Shown: piece after piece, positions 28,436 to 36,111 of the stretch
How positions within the stretch are numbered: position 1 is the first letter of the stretch
How the letters are laid out: each line of letters begins with the position of its first letter
NCBI GenBank assembly: GCA_963667175.2
Contig: CAXXXF010000003.1
Coordinates: 480,001 to 544,000, forward strand
DNA: 64,000 bases
Origin: Candidatus Latescibacterota bacterium
GTDB lineage: Bacteria; Latescibacterota; UBA2968; GCA-2709665
Reading direction: 5' to 3'
Program-made: the position numbers and the translations under genes
The notes under the pieces: model-generated
Told to the model about the DNA's origin: nothing
Seen by the model: the letters and a program-made list of their open reading frames with translations, nothing else
Databases searched by the model: none

Positions 28436-29650
28436 CTACTGACTCAACAGGCGTTTCCATCCCCGTGGGACGGCATTGGTTTCCAGCAGCATCAGCACCG
28501 CCTGCCGCTGCGCGGTCTTCAGGCTGTCGTCCCGGGCCTTCCAATAGGCGTCTCCGCGGCGGGTGGCGTTCGGACGCATCGAAAAAGCGTCCCGGCTGAA
28601 GACGGAATCGAGTAGCGCGGGGTTCAGCGAATAGCCGCCAATGCGGGTGGTCTGTTCGGCCACGGCGCCTGTGCCGGTGGTAATGCGCACGGTTTGCAGA
28701 ACCGGCAGCCAGTAACGGTCGTAGTAAAGCGCGTTTTGCTGGTAGGTGCGCAATTCCTCGACGCCGAGCGGTTTTCGCCCCCTCTTGTTCAACCGCAGGT
28801 CGTAGCCCACCAGCGAGAAGTCGTCCGCGGAGATCCAGATCGCCCCTTCAAGTCCGGGGCGCCTCTTCTTACTCGGCTCGACGCGAATCCGGTGCACCGC
28901 CACGTCGCCCATCTGTACGGTTCCGACCAGACGATAGCGGTAATTCTCCCGGGCGTCGGAGGCCAGCGGAAGCGGACCCACGTCGAAATCGCGGCCATTG
29001 AGGCGGCCGCTGCGGATATTGACGATCACGCCGGGATGCATGCCGAACTGCTGCGCAGGCGCCTGTCGCGACCGGTACGCCGTGATGACCTGGACGATCT
29101 CTCCCGGACTCCGATAGTACCCCAAACCATCGAACTCGATGCGAGCGAGGACACTTGAACCGGCGCCGGCGGCGGCGTACAAGGTCTGAGTACCCCGCAA
29201 CGTGAAACGATGCGTTTGGAGATCCGCGTAGCGCGTATGGAAGACGTTCTCGCGGGGTTCCCGGCCTGCTTCGTCGAGGAGCGCCTTGAGGGACGGTCGC
29301 GGAAGGTCGACGTGTGACTTGAGGGGAATGGGAGACGGGGAGAGCAGGATGTCCAGCGGGCTCTCCGGAGCCGCGGCCGAGTCAATCTCCCGCAGTGCGG
29401 TCCGATAGCCCACCAGGGAGACCCGGAGGCGTATCGGGCCCGCGGGCAGGTCGGTGAGCGAGAATCGGCCATGGAGGTCCGTATGGTCTCCCCGCTTGAG
29501 TTCCGGCAGGATGACCGTGGCGTACGGAAGCGGCGCGCGCGTCGCACTGTCTCTCACGGCGCCGGTCAGGGTCGCCGAGCGCGTGGGCGCCTGAAGGAAG
29601 TGCAGCGCGAACAAGCCGGCGATGACGTTAGAAAAATGCCGTGCGGACAT
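28436..29650 (-). CDS. Exported protein with carboxypeptidase-like regulatory domain and DUF5686-like domain
   Basis: Signal peptide, GAVRDSATRAPLPYATV, SLVGY, PLASDARENYRYRL, GAIWI..D, YWLP. Confidence 0.7.
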   Translation of the reverse strand: MSARHFSNVIAGLFALHFLQAPTRSATLTGAVRDSATRAPLPYATVILPELKRGDHTDLHGRFSLTDLPAGPIRLRVSLVGYRTALREIDSAAAPESPLDILLSPSPIPLKSHVDLPRPSLKALLDEAGREPRENVFHTRYADLQTHRFTLRGTQTLYAAAGAGSSVLARIEFDGLGYYRSPGEIVQVITAYRSRQAPAQQFGMHPGVIVNIRSGRLNGRDFDVGPLPLASDARENYRYRLVGTVQMGDVAVHRIRVEPSKKRRPGLEGAIWISADDFSLVGYDLRLNKRGRKPLGVEELRTYQQNALYYDRYWLPVLQTVRITTGTGAVAEQTTRIGGYSLNPALLDSVFSRDAFSMRPNATRRGDAYWKARDDSLKTAQRQAVLMLLETNAVPRGWKRLLSQ

Positions 29651-30812
29651 CGGCCAGTGCCTGAATGAGACGGTTGATATCTTCCTCTGCGTGGTCGGCC
29701 ATGAGCGTGAGGCGAAGACGGCTCTCTCCTTCCGGCACTGTCGGAGGCCGGATGCCGCTGAGGTAGATCCCCTCCTCGAAGAGATGGTCCGAAATCGCCG
29801 TCGTACGCGTCGCGTCGCCGATCAGTACGGGGATGATCTGGGATCGGGAGTCCATGAGATTGAAATCGAGGGCTTTCAGTGCGTTATGGACGGTTCGGAC
29901 GTTTCGCCAGAGTCTGTCTCGCAGGTCCGGACGCGTTTCGATGAGTCCCAGGGCGGCGGAGGCGGCCGCGCAGGCGTCGGGTGGCAGGGCCGAGGTATAG
30001 ATGAAAGCCGGCGCCCGATTGATCAGCAGGTCAATGAGTTCCGCGTTTCCGGCGACGAATCCGCCGTAGGCGCCGAGGGCCTTGCTGCCGGAAGTCGTCA
30101 GAACGTCGATACCCTGTGTGATGCCGAAATGGTCGTGTATGCCCCGGCCGGAAGCGCCCAGGACGCCGGTTCCATGGGCGTCGTCAACCATCAGTATGGC
30201 CTTATGCCGGTTCGCCGCGTCCACAAGATCCGACAGCGGGGCGAGGTCGCCGTCCATACTGAACAGCCCGTCGGTGACGATCAGCCGGCGCCGGTAATCG
30301 ATCCGGGTCCGGAGAAGCTTGTCAAGATGGTCGACGTTTCGGTGGCGATAGACGAAGGTTTCTGCGCGGGAGAGCCGGCAGGCGTCGATGATGCTGCGAT
30401 GGTTCAGGCGGTCGCTGAAAACCGCATCCTCCTCGCCTGCAAGTGCGCTCACCGCTCCCAGGTTCGCCATGTAGCCCGTGGGAAAGCAGAGGGCTGATTC
30501 GGTTCCCAGGAATCGGGCCACCCGGCCTTCCAGCGTCCGATGCGGTTCCATGTTTCCGGAAATCAGGCGGGAGGCCGCCGCGCTCAGCCCGTACGTGCGC
30601 AGGGCGGCGTCCGCGTCTTCCTTAAGGGCAGGGTGATTTGCAAGCCCGAGATAGTTATTGGAGCAGAAGAGGAGACGTTCCTTGCCGTCGATACGGACCC
30701 TGGGACCCTGCGCGCCTTCCACCAGATGGAGGCTGCGATACAGCCCGCGTGATCTCAGATTGTTCAACTCTGTGTCGAGATGAGGAAGCACTGGACGGAC
30801 ACCGATGCGCAA
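29628..30812 (-). CDS. bioF: 8-amino-7-oxononanoate synthase
   Basis: FCSNNYLGLA, TGYMANLG, DRLNHRSIID, FSMDGD, VDDAHG, SKALG, IRPPTVP. Confidence 0.9.
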   Translation of the reverse strand: MRIGVRPVLPHLDTELNNLRSRGLYRSLHLVEGAQGPRVRIDGKERLLFCSNNYLGLANHPALKEDADAALRTYGLSAAASRLISGNMEPHRTLEGRVARFLGTESALCFPTGYMANLGAVSALAGEEDAVFSDRLNHRSIIDACRLSRAETFVYRHRNVDHLDKLLRTRIDYRRRLIVTDGLFSMDGDLAPLSDLVDAANRHKAILMVDDAHGTGVLGASGRGIHDHFGITQGIDVLTTSGSKALGAYGGFVAGNAELIDLLINRAPAFIYTSALPPDACAAASAALGLIETRPDLRDRLWRNVRTVHNALKALDFNLMDSRSQIIPVLIGDATRTTAISDHLFEEGIYLSGIRPPTVPEGESRLRLTLMADHAEEDINRLIQALADVRTAFF

Positions 30813-30843: not shown

Positions 30844-30923
30844 ATTATGGAAATCCCCCGGGATTGTCAAGCCGGTGGCGGGGAGTGGTACCGGTTTGAC
30901 AAAGGGGTTCATTCGCGTATATT
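30844..30923. promoter_or_regulatory. Divergent sigma70-type promoters (bioF / lnt-tatC)
   Basis: Plus strand TTGACA(30896)-16 bp-TATATT; minus strand TTGACA(30870)-15 bp-CATAAT. Confidence 0.55.
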
Positions 30924-31068
30924 CTAATCCGGATTTCAGGGCGGGGTTCAAACGGACCGGTTGGCGGATCTTACTGCTTGCGTCCAACCGGTTTTTCTGT
31001 CCCGCAACCTGAAACAGGAAAACGAGGCCGCCCGGGAAACGGCGGAAGGGGTCGGAGGAACCGGAATC

Positions 31069-33390
31069 ATGACGGAGGCACGGCAAGGCGAAAACTGGAA
31101 ATGGATGGTTTTGTTTCCGGCGGTTTCCGGCCTTGTCCTGGGCGCGGCATTTCCGCCTCTGCCTCTGGGGTTTCTGTCTTATGTCGCGCTGATCCCTCTG
31201 CTGCTTTCGGCTGAGCGGCTACGGGGCCGGGCGGCATTCGGCGCCGGGTTCATTCAGGGGATCTTCTTTTACGGTGTCACGCTATACTGGATCGGAACGA
31301 TCACGCCGCCCGGCATGGCCGGAGCGGTTTTTTATATGTCCCTGTTCCGCGGCCTGTTCACGTTGGGGTTCGCCCGCGTTGTTGCGCGGTATGGCGGCGC
31401 CGGGTTGTGGAGCGCGCCCTTCCTCTGGGTGGGGTTGGAATATTTCAACTCTCTGGGCGATATGGGGTTTCCATGGGTCGTGCTGGGAAATTCGCAGACG
31501 GCCTGGCTGTGGCTGATTCAGTATGCCGAAGTGACGGGGGTGTACGGGGTTTCGTTCTGGATTGTGGTGGTCAACCTGAGCGTGCTGATGCTCTGGAGGC
31601 GCCGGGCGCGGCGCAGGATATGGGTTGCGGTTCTGGCGGCGCTTTTCGCGGGACCGGCGGCAAACGGGTATCTGGCTCTGAAGAACGTTCCAGATGAACA
31701 ACCCGTGACCGTCGGCCTGGTCCAGCCGGATATGCCGCCCGTGGCCAAGGAATACCGGGGATTCGATTACAATTTCGGCAAGCTGAAGCCGATGACCGTC
31801 GAGGCCGCAGGGCAGGGGGCAGGGCTCGTGGTGTGGCCCGAGACGGCCGTGGGCTATCTGAAAGGGGAATTGTACCGGCGCCATCGCGAGCGGGTGCAGG
31901 CAATGGTGGACTCGCTCGGCATCCATCTCTTTACGGGCGCGTACAGACTGGAGGCCGGCGACCCTGTAAAGGTCTTCAACTCCTCGTTTCTGTTCGCGCC
32001 GCGAAGGGGGATCACGGGACACTACGACAAAACGCGCCTCGTGCCGTTCGGCGAACGGGCGCCGTTCCCGGAATTGCTGCCTTTTCTGCGAAAGATCAGG
32101 TTCACGGGCGGCGGGTTCGTGGGTGGCAACTGGGATTCCGGAGAGACCCGGACGGTCTTCGACGGTCCCGAGGGCCGCTTCTCCGCGTTGATCTGTTACG
32201 ATTCGGTTTTTCCCGGATTCGTGCGGGCCTTCGCGGACCAGGGCGCCGAGTTTCTGGTGATCATTACCAATGACGGCTGGTTCGGCAGGACTTCCGGTCC
32301 CTTTCAGCATGCCGAGGCGGCGGTGTTTCGCGCCATCGAGAACCGGCGCGACGTGGTCCGCTGCGCGAATACGGGCGTTTCCACTTTTATCGACGCCTAT
32401 GGACGGAAATCGGGGACGACAGGGATCTTCCATCCCGCGGTGGTGACGCAGGGGGTGACGCCGCGGACCGCAAAGACGTTCTATACCAGGTACGGAGACG
32501 TGTTCGGCCAGCTTTGCCTGGTTCTGGGCGTGGTTCTGGTGTTGTTGTCCTTCCGCCATCACACGATGGATGCATCCCATTCCATTCTGCCCCCGGACGT
32601 CGAATCGTCAGCCGCTCAGGCGCCCGAACCGGCTTCGGGCGCCGACGACCGGGCGATGCCCTTTCTGGACCATCTGGAGGAACTCCGGTGGCGCCTGTTG
32701 AAGGGACTGGCGGCCCTCGCGGTCGGCGCCGTGATCTGCGGGATTTCTGCGGACAATATCCTCGGTTGGCTCACGTTGCCCGTCCGGGAGGCGACCCCCG
32801 TCATGAAGCTGCTGGGCGTGGCGCCCGTCGAGCCGTCGGTCAAGCTGATTTATTTGAAACCGATGGGGATGTTTCTCGTTAAACTTCAAATTGCCCTGGT
32901 CGGCGGCGCGGTACTCGCGTTGCCGGTGCTCCTGTATCAGCTGTGGGGCTTCGTCGCGCCGGGTCTGTTGACAACCGAACGGCGGTACGTATCTTTCATT
33001 GTATTTTCATCGTCGGTCTGTTTTGTTCTCGGAGGCGCCATCGCTTACGTGAGCGTGGTGCCGCTGTCGTTTCGATTCCTTATCCTGATCGGCGAAGGGA
33101 CCGGGGTCGACCCCCAGTTCGATATCGGCTTCTACATCGGTTTCGTGCTGAGGCTGCTGGTTGCCTTCGGGGTTGTCTTCGAGCTTCCGGTGGCGGCGTA
33201 CTTCCTGAGCCGGATCGGTCTGCTGACCGCGGAACGGATGCGCTGGGGAAGGCGGTACGCGGTGGTGATCGGCTTTGTGCTGGCCGCGCTGCTGACGCCG
33301 CCGGACCCGATCTCCCAGCTGATGATGGCGCTCCCGCTGGTGCTGCTCTATGAATTCAGCATCTGGGTGGCGCGTGTTGCCGGCAGATGA
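31069..33390 (+). CDS. lnt-tatC: Apolipoprotein N-acyltransferase fused to twin-arginine translocase subunit TatC
   Basis: Lnt triad WPETA / YDKTRLVPFGE / ICYDS plus TNDGWFG and ANTGVS. After a linker, TatC motifs MPFLDHLEELR, YQLWGFVAPGL, FELPV, LTPPDPISQ. One ORF with GGAGG RBS. Confidence 0.9.
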   Translation: MTEARQGENWKWMVLFPAVSGLVLGAAFPPLPLGFLSYVALIPLLLSAERLRGRAAFGAGFIQGIFFYGVTLYWIGTITPPGMAGAVFYMSLFRGLFTLGFARVVARYGGAGLWSAPFLWVGLEYFNSLGDMGFPWVVLGNSQTAWLWLIQYAEVTGVYGVSFWIVVVNLSVLMLWRRRARRRIWVAVLAALFAGPAANGYLALKNVPDEQPVTVGLVQPDMPPVAKEYRGFDYNFGKLKPMTVEAAGQGAGLVVWPETAVGYLKGELYRRHRERVQAMVDSLGIHLFTGAYRLEAGDPVKVFNSSFLFAPRRGITGHYDKTRLVPFGERAPFPELLPFLRKIRFTGGGFVGGNWDSGETRTVFDGPEGRFSALICYDSVFPGFVRAFADQGAEFLVIITNDGWFGRTSGPFQHAEAAVFRAIENRRDVVRCANTGVSTFIDAYGRKSGTTGIFHPAVVTQGVTPRTAKTFYTRYGDVFGQLCLVLGVVLVLLSFRHHTMDASHSILPPDVESSAAQAPEPASGADDRAMPFLDHLEELRWRLLKGLAALAVGAVICGISADNILGWLTLPVREATPVMKLLGVAPVEPSVKLIYLKPMGMFLVKLQIALVGGAVLALPVLLYQLWGFVAPGLLTTERRYVSFIVFSSSVCFVLGGAIAYVSVVPLSFRFLILIGEGTGVDPQFDIGFYIGFVLRLLVAFGVVFELPVAAYFLSRIGLLTAERMRWGRRYAVVIGFVLAALLTPPDPISQLMMALPLVLLYEFSIWVARVAGR

Positions 33391-33477
33391 GCCGGGCGCG
33401 CGCTTCGGGCCCTCCGTTGCGCGCCGTTATTTCATTGCGATCCAATGTATGGGTAACTTAACAAGGGCTTGTTTTTA

Positions 33478-34455
33478 ATGAGTATACCGGTTGCACTAGC
33501 GGTTCTGGCAGTCTGTTTCGCGGTGCTTGCCAAATGCGCGTCGTGGTTTGTGGACGGAGCGGTGGGGATTGCCGAGTATCTGAACGTGCCCAAGATGCTG
33601 ATCGGGATCGTGCTGGTGAGTCTGGCAACGACGTCGCCGGAACTTGCCGTGTCCGTGCTGGCCGCGTTCGAAGGGCACCCGGAGATGGCGCTGGGCAACG
33701 CCATCGGGTCGGTGATTGTGGACGATGGCGTCGCGCTGGCGCTGGGCGTTCTCGTGGCCGGATCGCCGATTCTCATCAATCCGTACCTGCTGCGGACAAC
33801 GGGAATCTTCCTGATCGTCGTGGATCTGGCGGCGTACGCGATGGCGTTCGACGGAACGCTTGACCGGATCGAGGGCGTCGTACTGCTCCTCCTCTTCGTG
33901 GCATACACGGTCTTTACGTACGTCACACGCCGTCGTTCATCCGAGGCCGAGGGAAATCGGATGGAGGAACTGAAGGAGATCGAGGCTTCCATCGAGGGAC
34001 GAGGTCTCGGGACGTTGATGCTGTGGTTCTGCGTGGGGCTGGTCGGGGTGTTGATCTCCAGTCATTTTATCGTGGATTCCGCCGTGGTCATCGCCAAGGC
34101 ATTGGCAGTCAGCGAAGCGGTGATCGCGCTTACGGTGATCGCCATCGGCACGTCGTTGCCGGAGATCGCGACAGGCGTGACGGCCGCCCGCAGAGGACAC
34201 GGTGAGATTGTCGTCGGCAATATTCTTGGCGCGGACATCCTGAATATCTGCTGGATCGCGGGCGCGTCCGCGGTGGTCAATCCGCTCGTGGTGACGCCCA
34301 AAGTGATCCATTTTTCGTTTCCCGCCATGCTGGTGATCGTATTTGCGATGCTCCTCATGATGCGCACAGGCTACCGCCTGACGCGAATCGAGGGTTTCGT
34401 GCTGCTGGCGATATACGGGATATATCTGGCGTTGACGGGAATCATGTTTTTTTAG
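33478..34455 (+). CDS. Calcium/sodium antiporter (YrbG family)
   Basis: Two alpha repeats: ATTSPEL..GNAIGS and GTSLPEI..GNILGA. Confidence 0.92.
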   Translation: MSIPVALAVLAVCFAVLAKCASWFVDGAVGIAEYLNVPKMLIGIVLVSLATTSPELAVSVLAAFEGHPEMALGNAIGSVIVDDGVALALGVLVAGSPILINPYLLRTTGIFLIVVDLAAYAMAFDGTLDRIEGVVLLLLFVAYTVFTYVTRRRSSEAEGNRMEELKEIEASIEGRGLGTLMLWFCVGLVGVLISSHFIVDSAVVIAKALAVSEAVIALTVIAIGTSLPEIATGVTAARRGHGEIVVGNILGADILNICWIAGASAVVNPLVVTPKVIHFSFPAMLVIVFAMLLMMRTGYRLTRIEGFVLLAIYGIYLALTGIMFF

Positions 34456-34464
34456 GGGACCACA

Positions 34465-35499
34465 TTGGGCGGGATATTCGTGACCGGAGGCGCCGGGTTC
34501 ATCGGCTCGAACTTCGTTCGGTACTGGCTGTCCAGATATCCGGACGACAATGTCATAAACTACGATCTGCTCACGTACGCCGGGAATCCGGACAACCTGA
34601 CCGACGTGGTCGCGACGTATCCCGGCCGGTACGAGTTCGTTCAGGGTGACATCGGCAACTATCAGTTGACCAGGGAACTTCTGGAACGGCGCCGGCCGGA
34701 CTGTGTCGTCAACTTCGCCGCCGAGTCGCACAACAGCCGCGCCGTTGTCAATCCCGACGTCTTCTTCGAGACCAACGTGCTGGGAACACAGCGACTGTTG
34801 CAGGCGGCGCACGACGCCGGCGTGCCCAGGGTTCACCATATTTCCACCTGTGAGGTCTACGGGGACCTGCCGCTCGATTCGGAGGAGAGCTTTTCGGAAA
34901 CCGACCCGTATCAGCCGCGAACGCCGTACAACGCATCCAAAGCGGCCGCCGACCTGGCGGTCCGGGCGTACCATCTGACGTTCGGTCTGCCGGTTACGAT
35001 TTCCAATTGCGCAAACAACTACGGAGCGTACCAGTTTCCCGAAAAGGTGATCCCTCTGTTTGTCACCCAGCTCCTCAACGGGAAGAAGATGACGCTCTAC
35101 AAGAGCAGCCGGAACAAACGGGAGTGGCTCCACGTGGATGACCACTGCCGGGCGATCGATCTCATCCTGAAGCGGGGTAAGATCGGGGAGACGTACAACG
35201 TCGGCAGCGGCGTTGAAGTGGACGTCGAGACGGTCGCGGACACGATTCTGGACGTGCTCGGGCTGGATGGATCGTACAAGGTTTACGTTCCGGACCGTCC
35301 CGGACACGACCGCAGATATCTTCTGGATTCGAGCAAGCTGCGGACCGGACTCGGCTGGCGCCCCGAAGTTTCCTTCGAGCACGGGTTCAGGGAGACAGTA
35401 CTCTGGTACACCGACAACCGGGCCTGGTGGGAACCTCTCCTGCAACGTCTCGACGTGGACGAGGAAGCCTGGACGCAGGCGTCGACTCGCCGGTCCTGA
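34465..35499 (+). CDS. rfbB: dTDP-glucose 4,6-dehydratase
   Basis: VTGGAGFIGSN, LTYAGN, FAAESH, PYNASKAA, FPEKVIP, DRPGHDRRY. Confidence 0.93.
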   Translation: MGGIFVTGGAGFIGSNFVRYWLSRYPDDNVINYDLLTYAGNPDNLTDVVATYPGRYEFVQGDIGNYQLTRELLERRRPDCVVNFAAESHNSRAVVNPDVFFETNVLGTQRLLQAAHDAGVPRVHHISTCEVYGDLPLDSEESFSETDPYQPRTPYNASKAAADLAVRAYHLTFGLPVTISNCANNYGAYQFPEKVIPLFVTQLLNGKKMTLYKSSRNKREWLHVDDHCRAIDLILKRGKIGETYNVGSGVEVDVETVADTILDVLGLDGSYKVYVPDRPGHDRRYLLDSSKLRTGLGWRPEVSFEHGFRETVLWYTDNRAWWEPLLQRLDVDEEAWTQASTRRS

Positions 35500-35538
35500 T
35501 CCGAGACACGTGTCCATGTCTCCTTGAAAGGGCGTTGA

Positions 35539-36111
35539 ATGCCGTTCCGGTTTCAAAAATTGAGAATACCCGGACTCGTTCTCGTCGAGCCCCGTGTTTT
35601 TGGAGACAGTCGCGGGTTTCTGATGGAGTCCTACAAGAGGTCGGATTTCGAAGCGGATGGAATCTTCGCCGAGTTTGTGCAGGATATCCATTCCCACTCG
35701 GTCAGGGGCGTCCTGAGGGGAATGCACTTTCAGCTGCGCCCAGCGGCGCAGGCCAAGCTGGTGAGGGTTGTGAAGGGCGAGGTGTTCGACGTGGCGGTGG
35801 ATATCCGCAGGAATGCCCCCACCTTCGGACAGTGGGAAGGGGTGGTGCTGTCTGACGAAAACCACAGGATGTTCTACGTTCCGGAGGGATTTGCGCACGG
35901 GTTCTGCGTGCTGAGCGACGAGGCCGAGTTCGTCTACAAGGTCACCGCGGAGTTCGCGCCGGACCTCGACCGGGGCATCCTGTGGAACGATCCGGCCGTC
36001 GGCATCGACTGGCCGGTTTCCAATCCCGTCCTGTCCGCGAAGGACCTGGCGCTGCCCCCGCTGGCCGACGCCGAAAATAACTTCGTCTACGACACGGGCA
36101 CGGGTGGCTGA
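35539..36111 (+). CDS. rfbC: dTDP-4-dehydrorhamnose 3,5-epimerase
   Basis: FGDSRG, GVLRGMHFQ, DVAVDIR, GFAHGF, WNDP. Confidence 0.95.
   Translation: MPFRFQKLRIPGLVLVEPRVFGDSRGFLMESYKRSDFEADGIFAEFVQDIHSHSVRGVLRGMHFQLRPAAQAKLVRVVKGEVFDVAVDIRRNAPTFGQWEGVVLSDENHRMFYVPEGFAHGFCVLSDEAEFVYKVTAEFAPDLDRGILWNDPAVGIDWPVSNPVLSAKDLALPPLADAENNFVYDTGTGG

What the first reader, a model, noticed from the sequence alone, without database searches (positions are those of the whole stretch)
31069..33390. Lnt-TatC fusion: lipoprotein N-acyltransferase covalently joined to the Tat receptor
Seen: one ORF holds a complete Lnt (E-K-C triad in WPETA, YDK..LVPFGE, ICYD), a linker of about 35 aa rich in Pro/Ala/Ser, and a complete TatC. 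The linker (32551-32658) has no stop codon in any plus-strand frame, so a single indel cannot explain the join. Neither internal ATG (32566, 32656) has an evident RBS. Established: Lnt ends in the cytoplasm and TatC starts there, so the topology is compatible. The Lnt fusion I know of is mycobacterial Lnt-Ppm1, not TatC. No tatA or tatB is adjacent. Inference: a translocase that couples export of folded twin-arginine lipoproteins to their final N-acylation.
Basis: partly seen in the sequence, partly recalled or inferred. Interest (0 to 1): 0.82.

Follow-up and report, generated by a model that had tools for sequence, protein, structure and literature searches.

The report
Natural Lnt–TatC fusion gene in Latescibacterota
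One gene in this uncultured marine bacterium really does join the enzyme that finishes lipoproteins (Lnt) to the receptor of the Tat protein-export system (TatC), and its relatives show the join arose several times from an overlapping gene pair, though nothing yet shows the two halves work together.

Summary
Window 31069-33390 (+) is one 773-aa ORF with a complete Lnt (triad E258/K321/C376), a 32-aa acidic linker and a complete TatC. It holds the genome's only lnt and only tatC; tatA, lgt and lspA lie on other contigs. It is not an artefact: an independent ~97%-identical contig spans the junction without gaps or stops, and TatC sits in a long open frame in 53 of 53 genomes of the window's order (Latescibacterota). 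Part of a second family is also fused.

In split relatives of the same class, lnt lies directly upstream of tatC. In 18 of 23 such loci an in-frame tatC ATG overlaps or abuts the lnt stop. The linker is therefore TatC's own acidic N-terminal tail, and fusion needs only a one-base change. The gene tree needs at least 4 fused/split changes, and AU tests reject a single fused clade.

A crude census gives about 134 Sec-type lipobox proteins, about 100 RR proteins and only 6 with both, none a typical Tat substrate. The best reading is a bifunctional housekeeping protein that hard-wires the co-expression already present in relatives. No description was found in print.

The parts
30896..30923 (+). 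Sigma-70-like promoter match (TTGACA, 16 nt spacer, TATATT; 11 of 12) upstream of the fusion gene
   Evidence: a consensus scan only. 3 sites were found in the region against 0.8 expected. No such site lies in the linker or in the 3' end of the Lnt part.
31054..31059 (+). Shine-Dalgarno-like GGAGGA, 9 nt before ATG 31069
   Evidence: Read. It supports 31069 rather than TTG 30961 as the start.
31069..33390 (+). Lnt-TatC fusion ORF: 773 codons plus stop
31126..31578 (+). Lnt N-terminal membrane domain (Pfam LNT_N, residues 20-170)
   Evidence: E 1.2e-31. One search gives the alignment to solved Lnt.
31711..32406 (+). Periplasmic nitrilase-like (CN_hydrolase) domain of Lnt, residues 215-446. Catalytic E258 is at 31840-31842, K321 at 32029-32031 and C376 at 32194-32196.
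   Evidence: The triad is invariant in 109 of 109 sequences. Codons were read.
32497..32559 (+). Last transmembrane helix of Lnt (residues 477-497), which returns the chain to the cytoplasm
   Evidence: Hydropathy peak of 2.28. It lies within the end-to-end alignment to solved Lnt. The cytoplasmic location of the Lnt C-terminus is established knowledge, recalled here.
32560..32655 (+). Acidic, Pro/Ala-rich linker (residues 498-529). It is homologous to the N-terminal tail of TatC in split relatives. It contains M500 (ATG 32566-32568), which is probably the relic of the old coupled tatC start.
   Evidence: M500 is not conserved in group A (Val in P0009).
32656..33387 (+). TatC moiety (residues 530-773, six-TM receptor core). 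M530 (32656-32658) aligns with Met1 of Aquifex TatC. E538 is at 32680-32682 and E637 at 32977-32979.
   Evidence: M530 is Met in 109 of 109 fused proteins. E637 is invariant and E538 is at least 90% conserved.

Best explanation
The ORF encodes one bifunctional inner-membrane protein. Its parts are a complete, catalytically intact Lnt, a cytoplasmic disordered acidic tether, and a complete TatC that works with the single unlinked TatA.

It evolved from a translationally coupled lnt-tatC gene pair that is typical of this class of Latescibacterota. In that pair the tatC start overlapped or abutted the lnt stop, and TatC already carried an acidic N-terminal tail. Loss of the stop, or a 1-nt frame change, turned that tail into the linker. 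This happened several times independently and became fixed in the window's whole order.

Both halves do their ordinary housekeeping jobs: N-acylation of all lipoproteins, and reception of all twin-arginine substrates. What the fusion adds (inferred, not shown) is obligatory 1:1 co-synthesis and co-insertion, and so proximity. It hardens the coupling already present in relatives and is not a new dedicated pathway.
For: **Both halves are complete and conserved.** The triad and the TatC motifs are invariant in 109 of 109 sequences. Mean column identity within group A is 0.70 for Lnt, 0.75 for TatC and 0.36 for the linker.

**Only copy in the genome.** There is one tatC and one bona fide lnt, both in this ORF. 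tatA, lgt and lspA are each single and unlinked.

**The fusion is real and maintained.**
- An independent contig spans the junction.
- In all 53 genomes of the order, TatC lies in an open frame of 713-841 aa. The one exception is 506 aa, cut by a contig end.
- I confirmed Lnt and TatC in the same frame in every locus of that order that I fetched.
- The linker has at least 10 different lengths in that order, all in frame. 23 of its 29 distinct loci carry stops in the +2 frame and none carries one in frame.

**Origin from a coupled pair.**
- 23 distinct split loci have lnt immediately upstream of tatC on the same strand.
- 18 of those 23 have an in-frame tatC ATG within -10 to +15 nt of the lnt stop. 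Six are ATGA overlaps and four are ATGnnTGA.
- This gives TatC a 16-40 aa acidic tail.
- No lnt lies beside tatC in 9 loci from other classes of the phylum or in 59 loci from other phyla.

**Recurrence.**
- The tree needs at least 4 fused/split changes, forced by well-supported branches.
- AU tests reject all fused rows as one clade (p 2e-8) and the f4 fused rows as one clade (p 2.9e-6).

**Housekeeping rather than dedicated role.** This rests on the census.
Against: **No direct protein evidence.**
- Nothing shows that the full-length 85-kDa protein accumulates. There are no proteomics data, and the RNA contigs do not bridge the linker.

**M530 is unusually well kept.**
- M530, which aligns with Met1 of Aquifex TatC, is Met in 109 of 109 fused proteins. 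The codon is ATG in 28 of 29 unbiased fused loci.
- The relic start M500 has meanwhile decayed.
- This could mean that a separate TatC is also made from an internal start.

**Selection for association is possible.**
- Recurrent fusion, together with conserved coupling across a whole class, can also be read as selection for physical association of the two proteins. My reading treats that as unproven.

**The census is rough.**
- It rests on a home-made gene caller and regular expressions, not on TatP or SignalP, and it covers only one genome.

**No neutral benchmark.**
- I have no expected rate of neutral fusion to compare with the four events.
Confidence: 0.6

Rival explanations
1. This is the coupled-machine reading, close to the first reader's. 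Lnt and TatC form a physical complex, already in the split, translationally coupled relatives. The Tat receptor and the last step of lipoprotein maturation then act in one place, for instance on Tat-exported lipoproteins or through a structural role of Lnt in the receptor complex.
For: - lnt-tatC adjacency with start/stop overlap is conserved across a class: 23 split and 44 fused distinct loci.
- Fusion arose at least 3-4 times and is fixed in 53 of 53 genomes of one order.
- The published parallel, Lnt-Ppm1, is also fused in some species and an adjacent gene pair in others (passages of PMC3850990).
- The termini make a compatible topology (plus established topology, recalled).
Against: - Only 6 of about 140 lipobox proteins carry an RR motif, and none looks like a cofactor-bearing Tat substrate.
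- The sole Lnt and the sole TatC must serve mostly non-overlapping clients.
- Lgt and LspA, which act before Lnt, are unlinked.
- The linker is 18-95 aa, disordered and poorly conserved.
- TatA-family copy number is one in almost every genome of the phylum, fused or not. Lnt therefore does not stand in for a lost TatB.
- No interface test was possible.
Confidence: 0.17
2. The fusion exists on paper only. The ORF is continuous, but the working proteins are separate. TatC would be made from an internal start at M530, or the linker would be cut after synthesis. The join would then be a tolerated read-through with no consequence.
For: - M530 is Met in 109 of 109 fused proteins, although the surrounding linker is hypervariable.
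- It equals Met1 of Aquifex TatC.
- The organism uses SD sequences only moderately: 38% of called starts against 18.5% of internal controls reach -6 kcal/mol. A missing SD therefore does not exclude a start.
- Within genera g25 and g31, fused and split forms are sister clades, so the two states seem easily exchanged.
Against: - The frame stays open through the linker in 53 of 53 genomes of the order despite many indels, while stops are common in the off frames. That is expected only if translation through the linker matters.
- SD-like pairing before M530 is at background level in fused loci: 4 of 28 rows reach -6, median -2.75.
- One fused genome has ATA (Ile) at that codon (L120).
- In the split relatives the start is most likely the upstream ATG at the lnt stop, so M530 is internal there too.
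- One locus from another class has Leu at that position, with a Met 8 codons upstream (L112).
- No promoter-like site lies before the TatC part (consensus scan only).
Confidence: 0.15
3. The fusion is an assembly, binning or base-calling artefact, or a recent pseudogene-like accident in this one genome.
For: The genome is a MAG with 18 contigs, 95% completeness and 4.75% contamination.
Against: - Independent contigs from other runs span the junction.
- 113 of the 120 listed database homologues carry all three domains.
- TatC lies in a long open frame in 53 of 53 genomes of the order, many of them single-contig assemblies.
- Purifying selection is visible: 17 of the 22 listed X1 substitutions fall on third codon positions (my count).
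Confidence: 0.01

Closest known systems
Mycobacterial Lnt-Ppm1 (Rv2051c / BCG_2070c), the known natural Lnt fusion
   Same: - Lnt is the N-terminal moiety, with a second membrane-associated function joined at its cytoplasmic C-terminus.
- It is fused in some species and encoded as adjacent separate genes in others: M. smegmatis MSMEG_3860/3859 and C. glutamicum ppm2/ppm1 (passages of PMC3850990).
- Here too there are fused and adjacent-split relatives.
   Different: - The partner here is TatC, a six-TM translocase receptor, not a polyprenol-phosphate-mannose synthase.
- The lineage is Latescibacterota, not Actinobacteria.
- The join arose several times, from an overlapping start/stop.
Stand-alone Lnt of Proteobacteria (solved structures such as 5n6h, 5vrg, 5xhq)
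   Same: - Residues 16-504 align end to end with solved Lnt.
- The lnt equivalog HMM scores above its cut-off.
- The E-K-C triad is conserved.
   Different: The chain carries a further 276 residues (linker plus TatC) after the last TM helix.
Stand-alone TatC (Aquifex aeolicus structures 4b4a, 4hts) in a minimal TatAC-type system
   Same: - Residues 530-772 align to residues 1-231 of Aquifex TatC.
- The tatC equivalog scores above its cut-off.
- The genome has a single TatA-family gene, as in nearly the whole phylum.
   Different: - The N-terminus is not free. It continues upstream into an acidic tail and Lnt.
- TatAC systems without TatB are best known from Gram-positive bacteria and archaea (recalled, and in part the review PMC6098224, passages).
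   Same: Lnt is joined to an unrelated domain in one ORF: Lnt+SNase (P0189), PAP2+Lnt (P0199), Lnt+LEA_2 (P0162).
   Different: - None of them contains TatC.
- Each was seen here only as a single cluster representative. I did not study their distribution.

Membership tests
Apolipoprotein N-acyltransferase (Lnt; NCBIfam TIGR00546, Pfam LNT_N + CN_hydrolase) | Full-length match to the equivalog model above its curated cut-off | tested here: met
   328.7 bits against a cut-off of 132.9, covering model positions 2-394 of 395. Pfam LNT_N and CN_hydrolase are both present.
Apolipoprotein N-acyltransferase (Lnt; NCBIfam TIGR00546, Pfam LNT_N + CN_hydrolase) | Glu-Lys-Cys catalytic triad of the nitrilase fold | tested here: met
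   E258, K321 and C376 are invariant in 109 of 109 fused homologues. The correspondence to E. coli E267/K335/C387 is recalled, not computed.
Apolipoprotein N-acyltransferase (Lnt; NCBIfam TIGR00546, Pfam LNT_N + CN_hydrolase) | Membrane domain including the C-terminal helix after the periplasmic domain | tested here: met
   Residues 16-504 align to residues 22-518 of a 522-aa solved Lnt. A hydropathy peak lies at 477-495.
Apolipoprotein N-acyltransferase (Lnt; NCBIfam TIGR00546, Pfam LNT_N + CN_hydrolase) | N-acylation of apolipoproteins | not testable with these tools
   This needs complementation of an lnt depletion strain or mass spectrometry of lipoproteins. lgt and lspA are present in the genome.
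TatC (NCBIfam TIGR00945, Pfam PF00902) | Full-length match above the curated cut-off | tested here: met
   Pfam covers profile positions 1-208 of 208 at 226 bits. TIGR00945 scores 202.3 bits against a cut-off of 132.7.
TatC (NCBIfam TIGR00945, Pfam PF00902) | Six-TM core co-linear with solved TatC | tested here: met
   Residues 530-772 align to residues 1-231 of Aquifex TatC. Hydropathy peaks fall in the expected places.
TatC (NCBIfam TIGR00945, Pfam PF00902) | Conserved cytoplasmic-face glutamates of the twin-arginine binding site | tested here: met
   E637 is invariant and E538 is at least 90% conserved. Their equivalence to E. coli E103 and E15 is recalled.
TatC (NCBIfam TIGR00945, Pfam PF00902) | Partner TatA and candidate substrates in the same genome | tested here: met
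   There is one TatA_B_E gene. A crude regular-expression scan finds about 100 RR-motif proteins with an h-region.
   6 candidates among 3,860 called genes, against about 134 Sec-type lipobox proteins. None is a typical Tat substrate and one is a cytoplasmic false positive. The method is crude.
   lgt and lspA lie on contigs C15 and C6, while the fusion is on C3.
About 109 sequences are too few for covariation analysis.

The most novel reading that the evidence does not exclude
Lnt and TatC are physical partners in this class of Latescibacterota. The translational coupling in split species, and the repeated and then fixed fusions, would record selection for a joint complex in which the Tat receptor is assembled on, or regulated by, the lipoprotein N-acyltransferase. 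If so, these natural fusions reveal a link between Tat transport and lipoprotein or phospholipid acyl-transfer chemistry that has not been described in model bacteria.
Probability: 0.15. Interest if true: 0.75.

Novelty: new variant of a known kind. Interest (0 to 1): 0.5.

Why it matters
**Annotation.** Public records name these proteins only "apolipoprotein N-acyltransferase" or "hypothetical protein". Automated pathway calls can therefore score TatC, and with it the Tat pathway, as missing in a whole order of Latescibacterota.

**Evolution.** The locus shows all stages of a membrane-protein gene fusion, and the fusion step was taken several times independently:
- unlinked genes in other classes and phyla;
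- an adjacent pair with overlapping stop and start;
- a pair separated by an in-frame stop;
- a fused gene, fixed in one order.

**Mechanism.** A fusion of two unrelated envelope-biogenesis proteins, fixed over long divergence, is a classic hint of association. It gives Tat and lipoprotein researchers a concrete and cheap hypothesis to test, and a natural single-chain construct with TatC tethered at its N-terminus.

If the two halves turn out to work independently, the finding stays a tidy example of fusion by loss of a coupled stop codon.

Tried and rejected
**Lnt as a replacement for TatB: rejected.** The TatA_B_E family has one copy in almost all of the 159 genomes (of 168) that show a match, whether fused or not.

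**Shine-Dalgarno analysis of an internal start at M530: inconclusive.**
- Fused loci: 4 of 28 rows at or below -6 kcal/mol. Split loci: 8 of 15, or 8 of 23 in the larger set.
- The upstream coupled ATG in split loci is also weak, 3 of 21.
- Acidic and Gly codons are purine-rich and mimic SD sequences.
- Genome-wide SD use is only moderate.

**Met conservation (111 of 111 ATG): partly circular.** Loci L018-L096 were found with a peptide pattern that contains that Met. I re-counted on unbiased loci.

**"No in-frame stop in 44 fused loci": circular as a statistic.** That property defines the class. I use only the order-level version, where membership is set by taxonomy.

**RNA evidence.** Contigs of run X7, an RNA library holding a relative at 90-95% identity, cover 32200-32420 and 32653-32897 but not the linker. 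They show neither a joint transcript nor its absence.

**Run X2.** Nothing was laid, and the tool warns this can be false.

**Hydropathy scan.** It is too crude to count the weaker Lnt helices. Topology rests on alignment to solved structures instead.

**Literature.** Seven full-text searches and passages of PMC6098224, PMC13721041 and PMC5449189 gave no mention of an Lnt-TatC fusion. Supplements are closed and subscription journals are not covered.

- The search of earlier findings.
- Complex prediction.
- Structure prediction.
- No fold, interface or earlier-findings check was therefore possible.

**RR-lipobox counts in fused versus split sister genomes.** This could not be done. Only the window's own genome can be laid in the script box.
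Full report
**What is there.**

Window 31069-33390 (+) is a single 773-codon ORF. Pfam finds LNT_N (20-170), CN_hydrolase (215-446) and a complete TatC (534-756, profile positions 1-208 of 208). The NCBIfam equivalogs for lnt and tatC both score well above their cut-offs. Against solved structures, residues 16-504 align end to end with Lnt, including its last helix. Residues 530-772 align with residues 1-231 of Aquifex TatC, so M530 corresponds to Met1 of that TatC.

Between the last Lnt helix (477-497) and M530 lie 32 residues rich in Pro, Ala, Ser, Asp and Glu, with net charge -5. A GGAGGA sits 9 nt before ATG 31069, and a promoter-like site lies at 30896-30923.

**It is real, and it is the only copy.**

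The genome (5.52 Mb, 18 contigs, 95% complete) has one TatC match and one true lnt, both in this ORF. It has one TatA-family gene, one lgt and one lspA, all on other contigs.

Public runs were laid over 32200-33000:
- A 2,034-nt DNA contig of run X1, about 97% identical, covers the whole stretch with 26 substitutions and no gaps. Run X3 covers up to 32682.
- The two differences in or near the linker are a synonymous change (32526) and Ala>Thr (32572).
- By my count, 17 of the 22 listed X1 substitutions fall on third codon positions.

**Who has it.**

The record titles of related loci place the organism in Latescibacterota. Of the 19 loci there that matched both halves, 13 are titled Latescibacterota or Latescibacteria, 4 carry Gemmatimonadota-type names and 2 are "uncultured bacterium". 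In the gene tree all of them fall among genomes of the window's phylum.

- **Window's order (families f1 and f2).** All 53 genomes have TatC inside an open frame of 713-841 aa. The one exception is cut by the end of a 1.8-kb contig. Every locus of that order that I fetched has Lnt and TatC in one frame.
- **Family f4.** About 31 of the 73 genomes with a TatC match show open frames of 800 aa or more, in genera g25, g30 and g31.
- **Family f3 and the other classes.** These show open frames of about 250-300 aa.
- **5.8-billion-protein collection.** 325 proteins of 425-1,353 aa match the TatC part. Of the best 120, 113 carry all three domains, 5 are N-terminally short forms and 2 have TatC only.
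- **Exhaustive search of 1.84 billion cluster representatives.** Only two representatives match both halves (P0027 and P0108). Everything else in the top 150 is Lnt alone.

The architecture is therefore confined to this lineage.

**Where it came from.**

With my own HMMs of the two halves I classified 151 fetched loci. After removing 8 duplicates there are 44 distinct fused loci and 23 distinct split loci in which lnt lies directly upstream of tatC on the same strand. Of the split loci, 6 have a single in-frame stop and 17 are in another frame. Two more loci have lnt 1.5-1.9 kb upstream. None of the 9 loci from other classes of the phylum, and none of the 59 loci from other phyla, has lnt beside tatC.

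In the split loci the tatC frame stays open upstream of the MPFLDHLEELR motif. In 21 of 23 it contains an ATG. In 18 of 23 that ATG lies within -10 to +15 nt of the lnt stop, with six ATGA overlaps and four ATGnnTGA. TatC in this class therefore starts at the lnt stop and carries a 16-40 aa acidic tail beginning MTDE, MSDH, MDDE or similar. Short tails also occur before the motif in other classes.

The fusion linker is this tail. In 109 fused proteins it is 18-95 aa long (median 38, 42 distinct lengths), with 27.5% Asp+Glu, 16% Pro and only 9% large hydrophobic residues. In the window's gene, M500 (ATG 32566, "HHTMDAS") looks like the relic of the coupled start. It is not conserved among close relatives.

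**It happened more than once.**

A maximum-likelihood tree of concatenated Lnt and TatC domains was built from 69 rows. The window's own locus entered twice, and L007 was left out as too short. The tree needs at least 4 fused/split changes, all forced by branches with SH-aLRT of at least 95. The fused clades are:
- the order f1+f2 (29 rows), sister to split f3;
- genus g30;
- part of g31, sister to split g31;
- part of g25, sister to a g25 clade with an in-frame stop.

AU tests reject all 44 fused rows as one clade (delta lnL 579, p 2e-8). They also reject the 15 f4 fused rows as one clade (delta lnL 385, p 2.9e-6). Because the split-adjacent state is basal and widespread, and the outgroups lack adjacency, independent gains are the more parsimonious direction. 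The tree itself cannot tell gain from loss.

**Is the full-length protein the working form?**

Evidence that it is:
- In the order f1+f2 the linker has at least 10 lengths, all in frame. There is no in-frame stop in 29 distinct loci, while 23 of the 29 have stops in the +2 frame. That is what selection for translation through the linker would give.
- SD-like pairing before M530 is at background level in fused loci.
- One fused genome has ATA at that codon.

Evidence that leaves room for an internal start:
- M530 is Met in 109 of 109 fused proteins, and the codon is ATG in 28 of 29 unbiased fused loci.
- It is equally kept in split loci (19 of 19), where it is probably internal. That points to a structural constraint or a secondary start.

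I put the internal-start or cleavage rival at 0.15.

**Does the fusion couple Tat export to N-acylation?**

I found no support for this.
- A crude census used my own gene caller (3,860 genes) and regular expressions. It gives about 134 Sec-type lipobox proteins, about 100 RR-motif proteins and 6 with both.
- Pfam shows those 6 to be a BamD-like TPR protein, an M10 protease with a propeller, an HlyD adaptor, an SBP_bac_5 protein, one protein without a hit, and a cytoplasmic radical-SAM protein that is a false positive.
- Because this ORF is the only Lnt and the only TatC, each half must mostly serve clients that the other never sees.
- TatA-family copy number does not differ between fused and unfused genomes.
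- Whether the two halves touch could not be tested.

**Comparison with what is known.**

The closest precedent is mycobacterial Lnt-Ppm1. It is fused in M. tuberculosis and BCG and encoded by adjacent genes in M. smegmatis and C. glutamicum (passages of PMC3850990). Other Lnt fusions turned up in passing: with SNase, PAP2 and LEA_2 domains. Seven full-text searches found no description of an Lnt-TatC fusion.

**Verdict.**

This is a genuine, lineage-specific and recurrent fusion of two well-known envelope-biogenesis proteins, so it is a new domain architecture of known parts. It is well explained as the hardening of a translationally coupled gene pair. The attractive functional reading is unproven and gets no help from the substrate census. 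Interest is 0.5.

Noticed in passing
Proteins P0189, P0199, P0162, P0165 and P0174 (one search hits): Other natural Lnt fusions exist in metagenomic data: Lnt+SNase (688 aa), PAP2+Lnt (735 aa) and Lnt+LEA_2 (622 aa). Two further Lnt proteins carry about 340 extra C-terminal residues with no Pfam match.
   Followed up: partly
Alignment A1 columns about 801-870; loci of family f4 (for example L027, L121): TatC of family f4, fused or split, carries an insertion of about 40-60 aa in the first periplasmic loop. The window's order lacks it (the TatC matches are longer).
   Followed up: no
Whole phylum; G000:C16:455017-455160: Nearly every Latescibacterota genome with a match has a single TatA-family gene. 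That implies a TatAC-type system without a separate TatB. In family f4 the tatA gene lies roughly 7-14 kb from tatC (compare the coordinates for G167, G166, G164, G098, G121). In the window's genome it is on another contig.
   Followed up: partly
P0104, P0105; family f10 loci L115, L116: Some TatC genes lie in open frames of 406-464 aa, or are called as 428-431 aa proteins with an N-terminal extension of about 150 aa that has no Pfam match. These may be over-called starts in GC-rich DNA or a different N-terminal extension.
   Followed up: partly
Database names: The fused proteins are named only "apolipoprotein N-acyltransferase" or "hypothetical protein" by their sources. The TatC half is therefore invisible in name-based pathway reconstructions.
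   Followed up: no
Linkers of fused g25 and g31 loci (L125, L126, L027, L121-L124): Linkers in family f4 contain short acidic low-complexity repeats (DHDPE/ADLD-like in g25; Gly/Pro/Glu/Ala-rich in g31). These expand and contract between close relatives (69-267 nt).
   Followed up: no
window 28436-30812 (-) and 33469-36111 (+): Neighbouring genes are unrelated to Tat or lipoprotein maturation. Upstream, on the opposite strand, lie a CarboxypepD_reg/DUF5686 protein and a class I/II aminotransferase (BioF/Kbl-like). Downstream lie a Na/Ca exchanger, a dTDP-glucose 4,6-dehydratase-like gene and a dTDP-4-dehydrorhamnose 3,5-epimerase.
   Followed up: partly
Runs X1, X3-X5: Most of the public runs that hold near-identical sequence are labelled sponge metagenome. 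Shares are 0.22-0.51, and only X1 and X3 of these were laid.
   Followed up: partly
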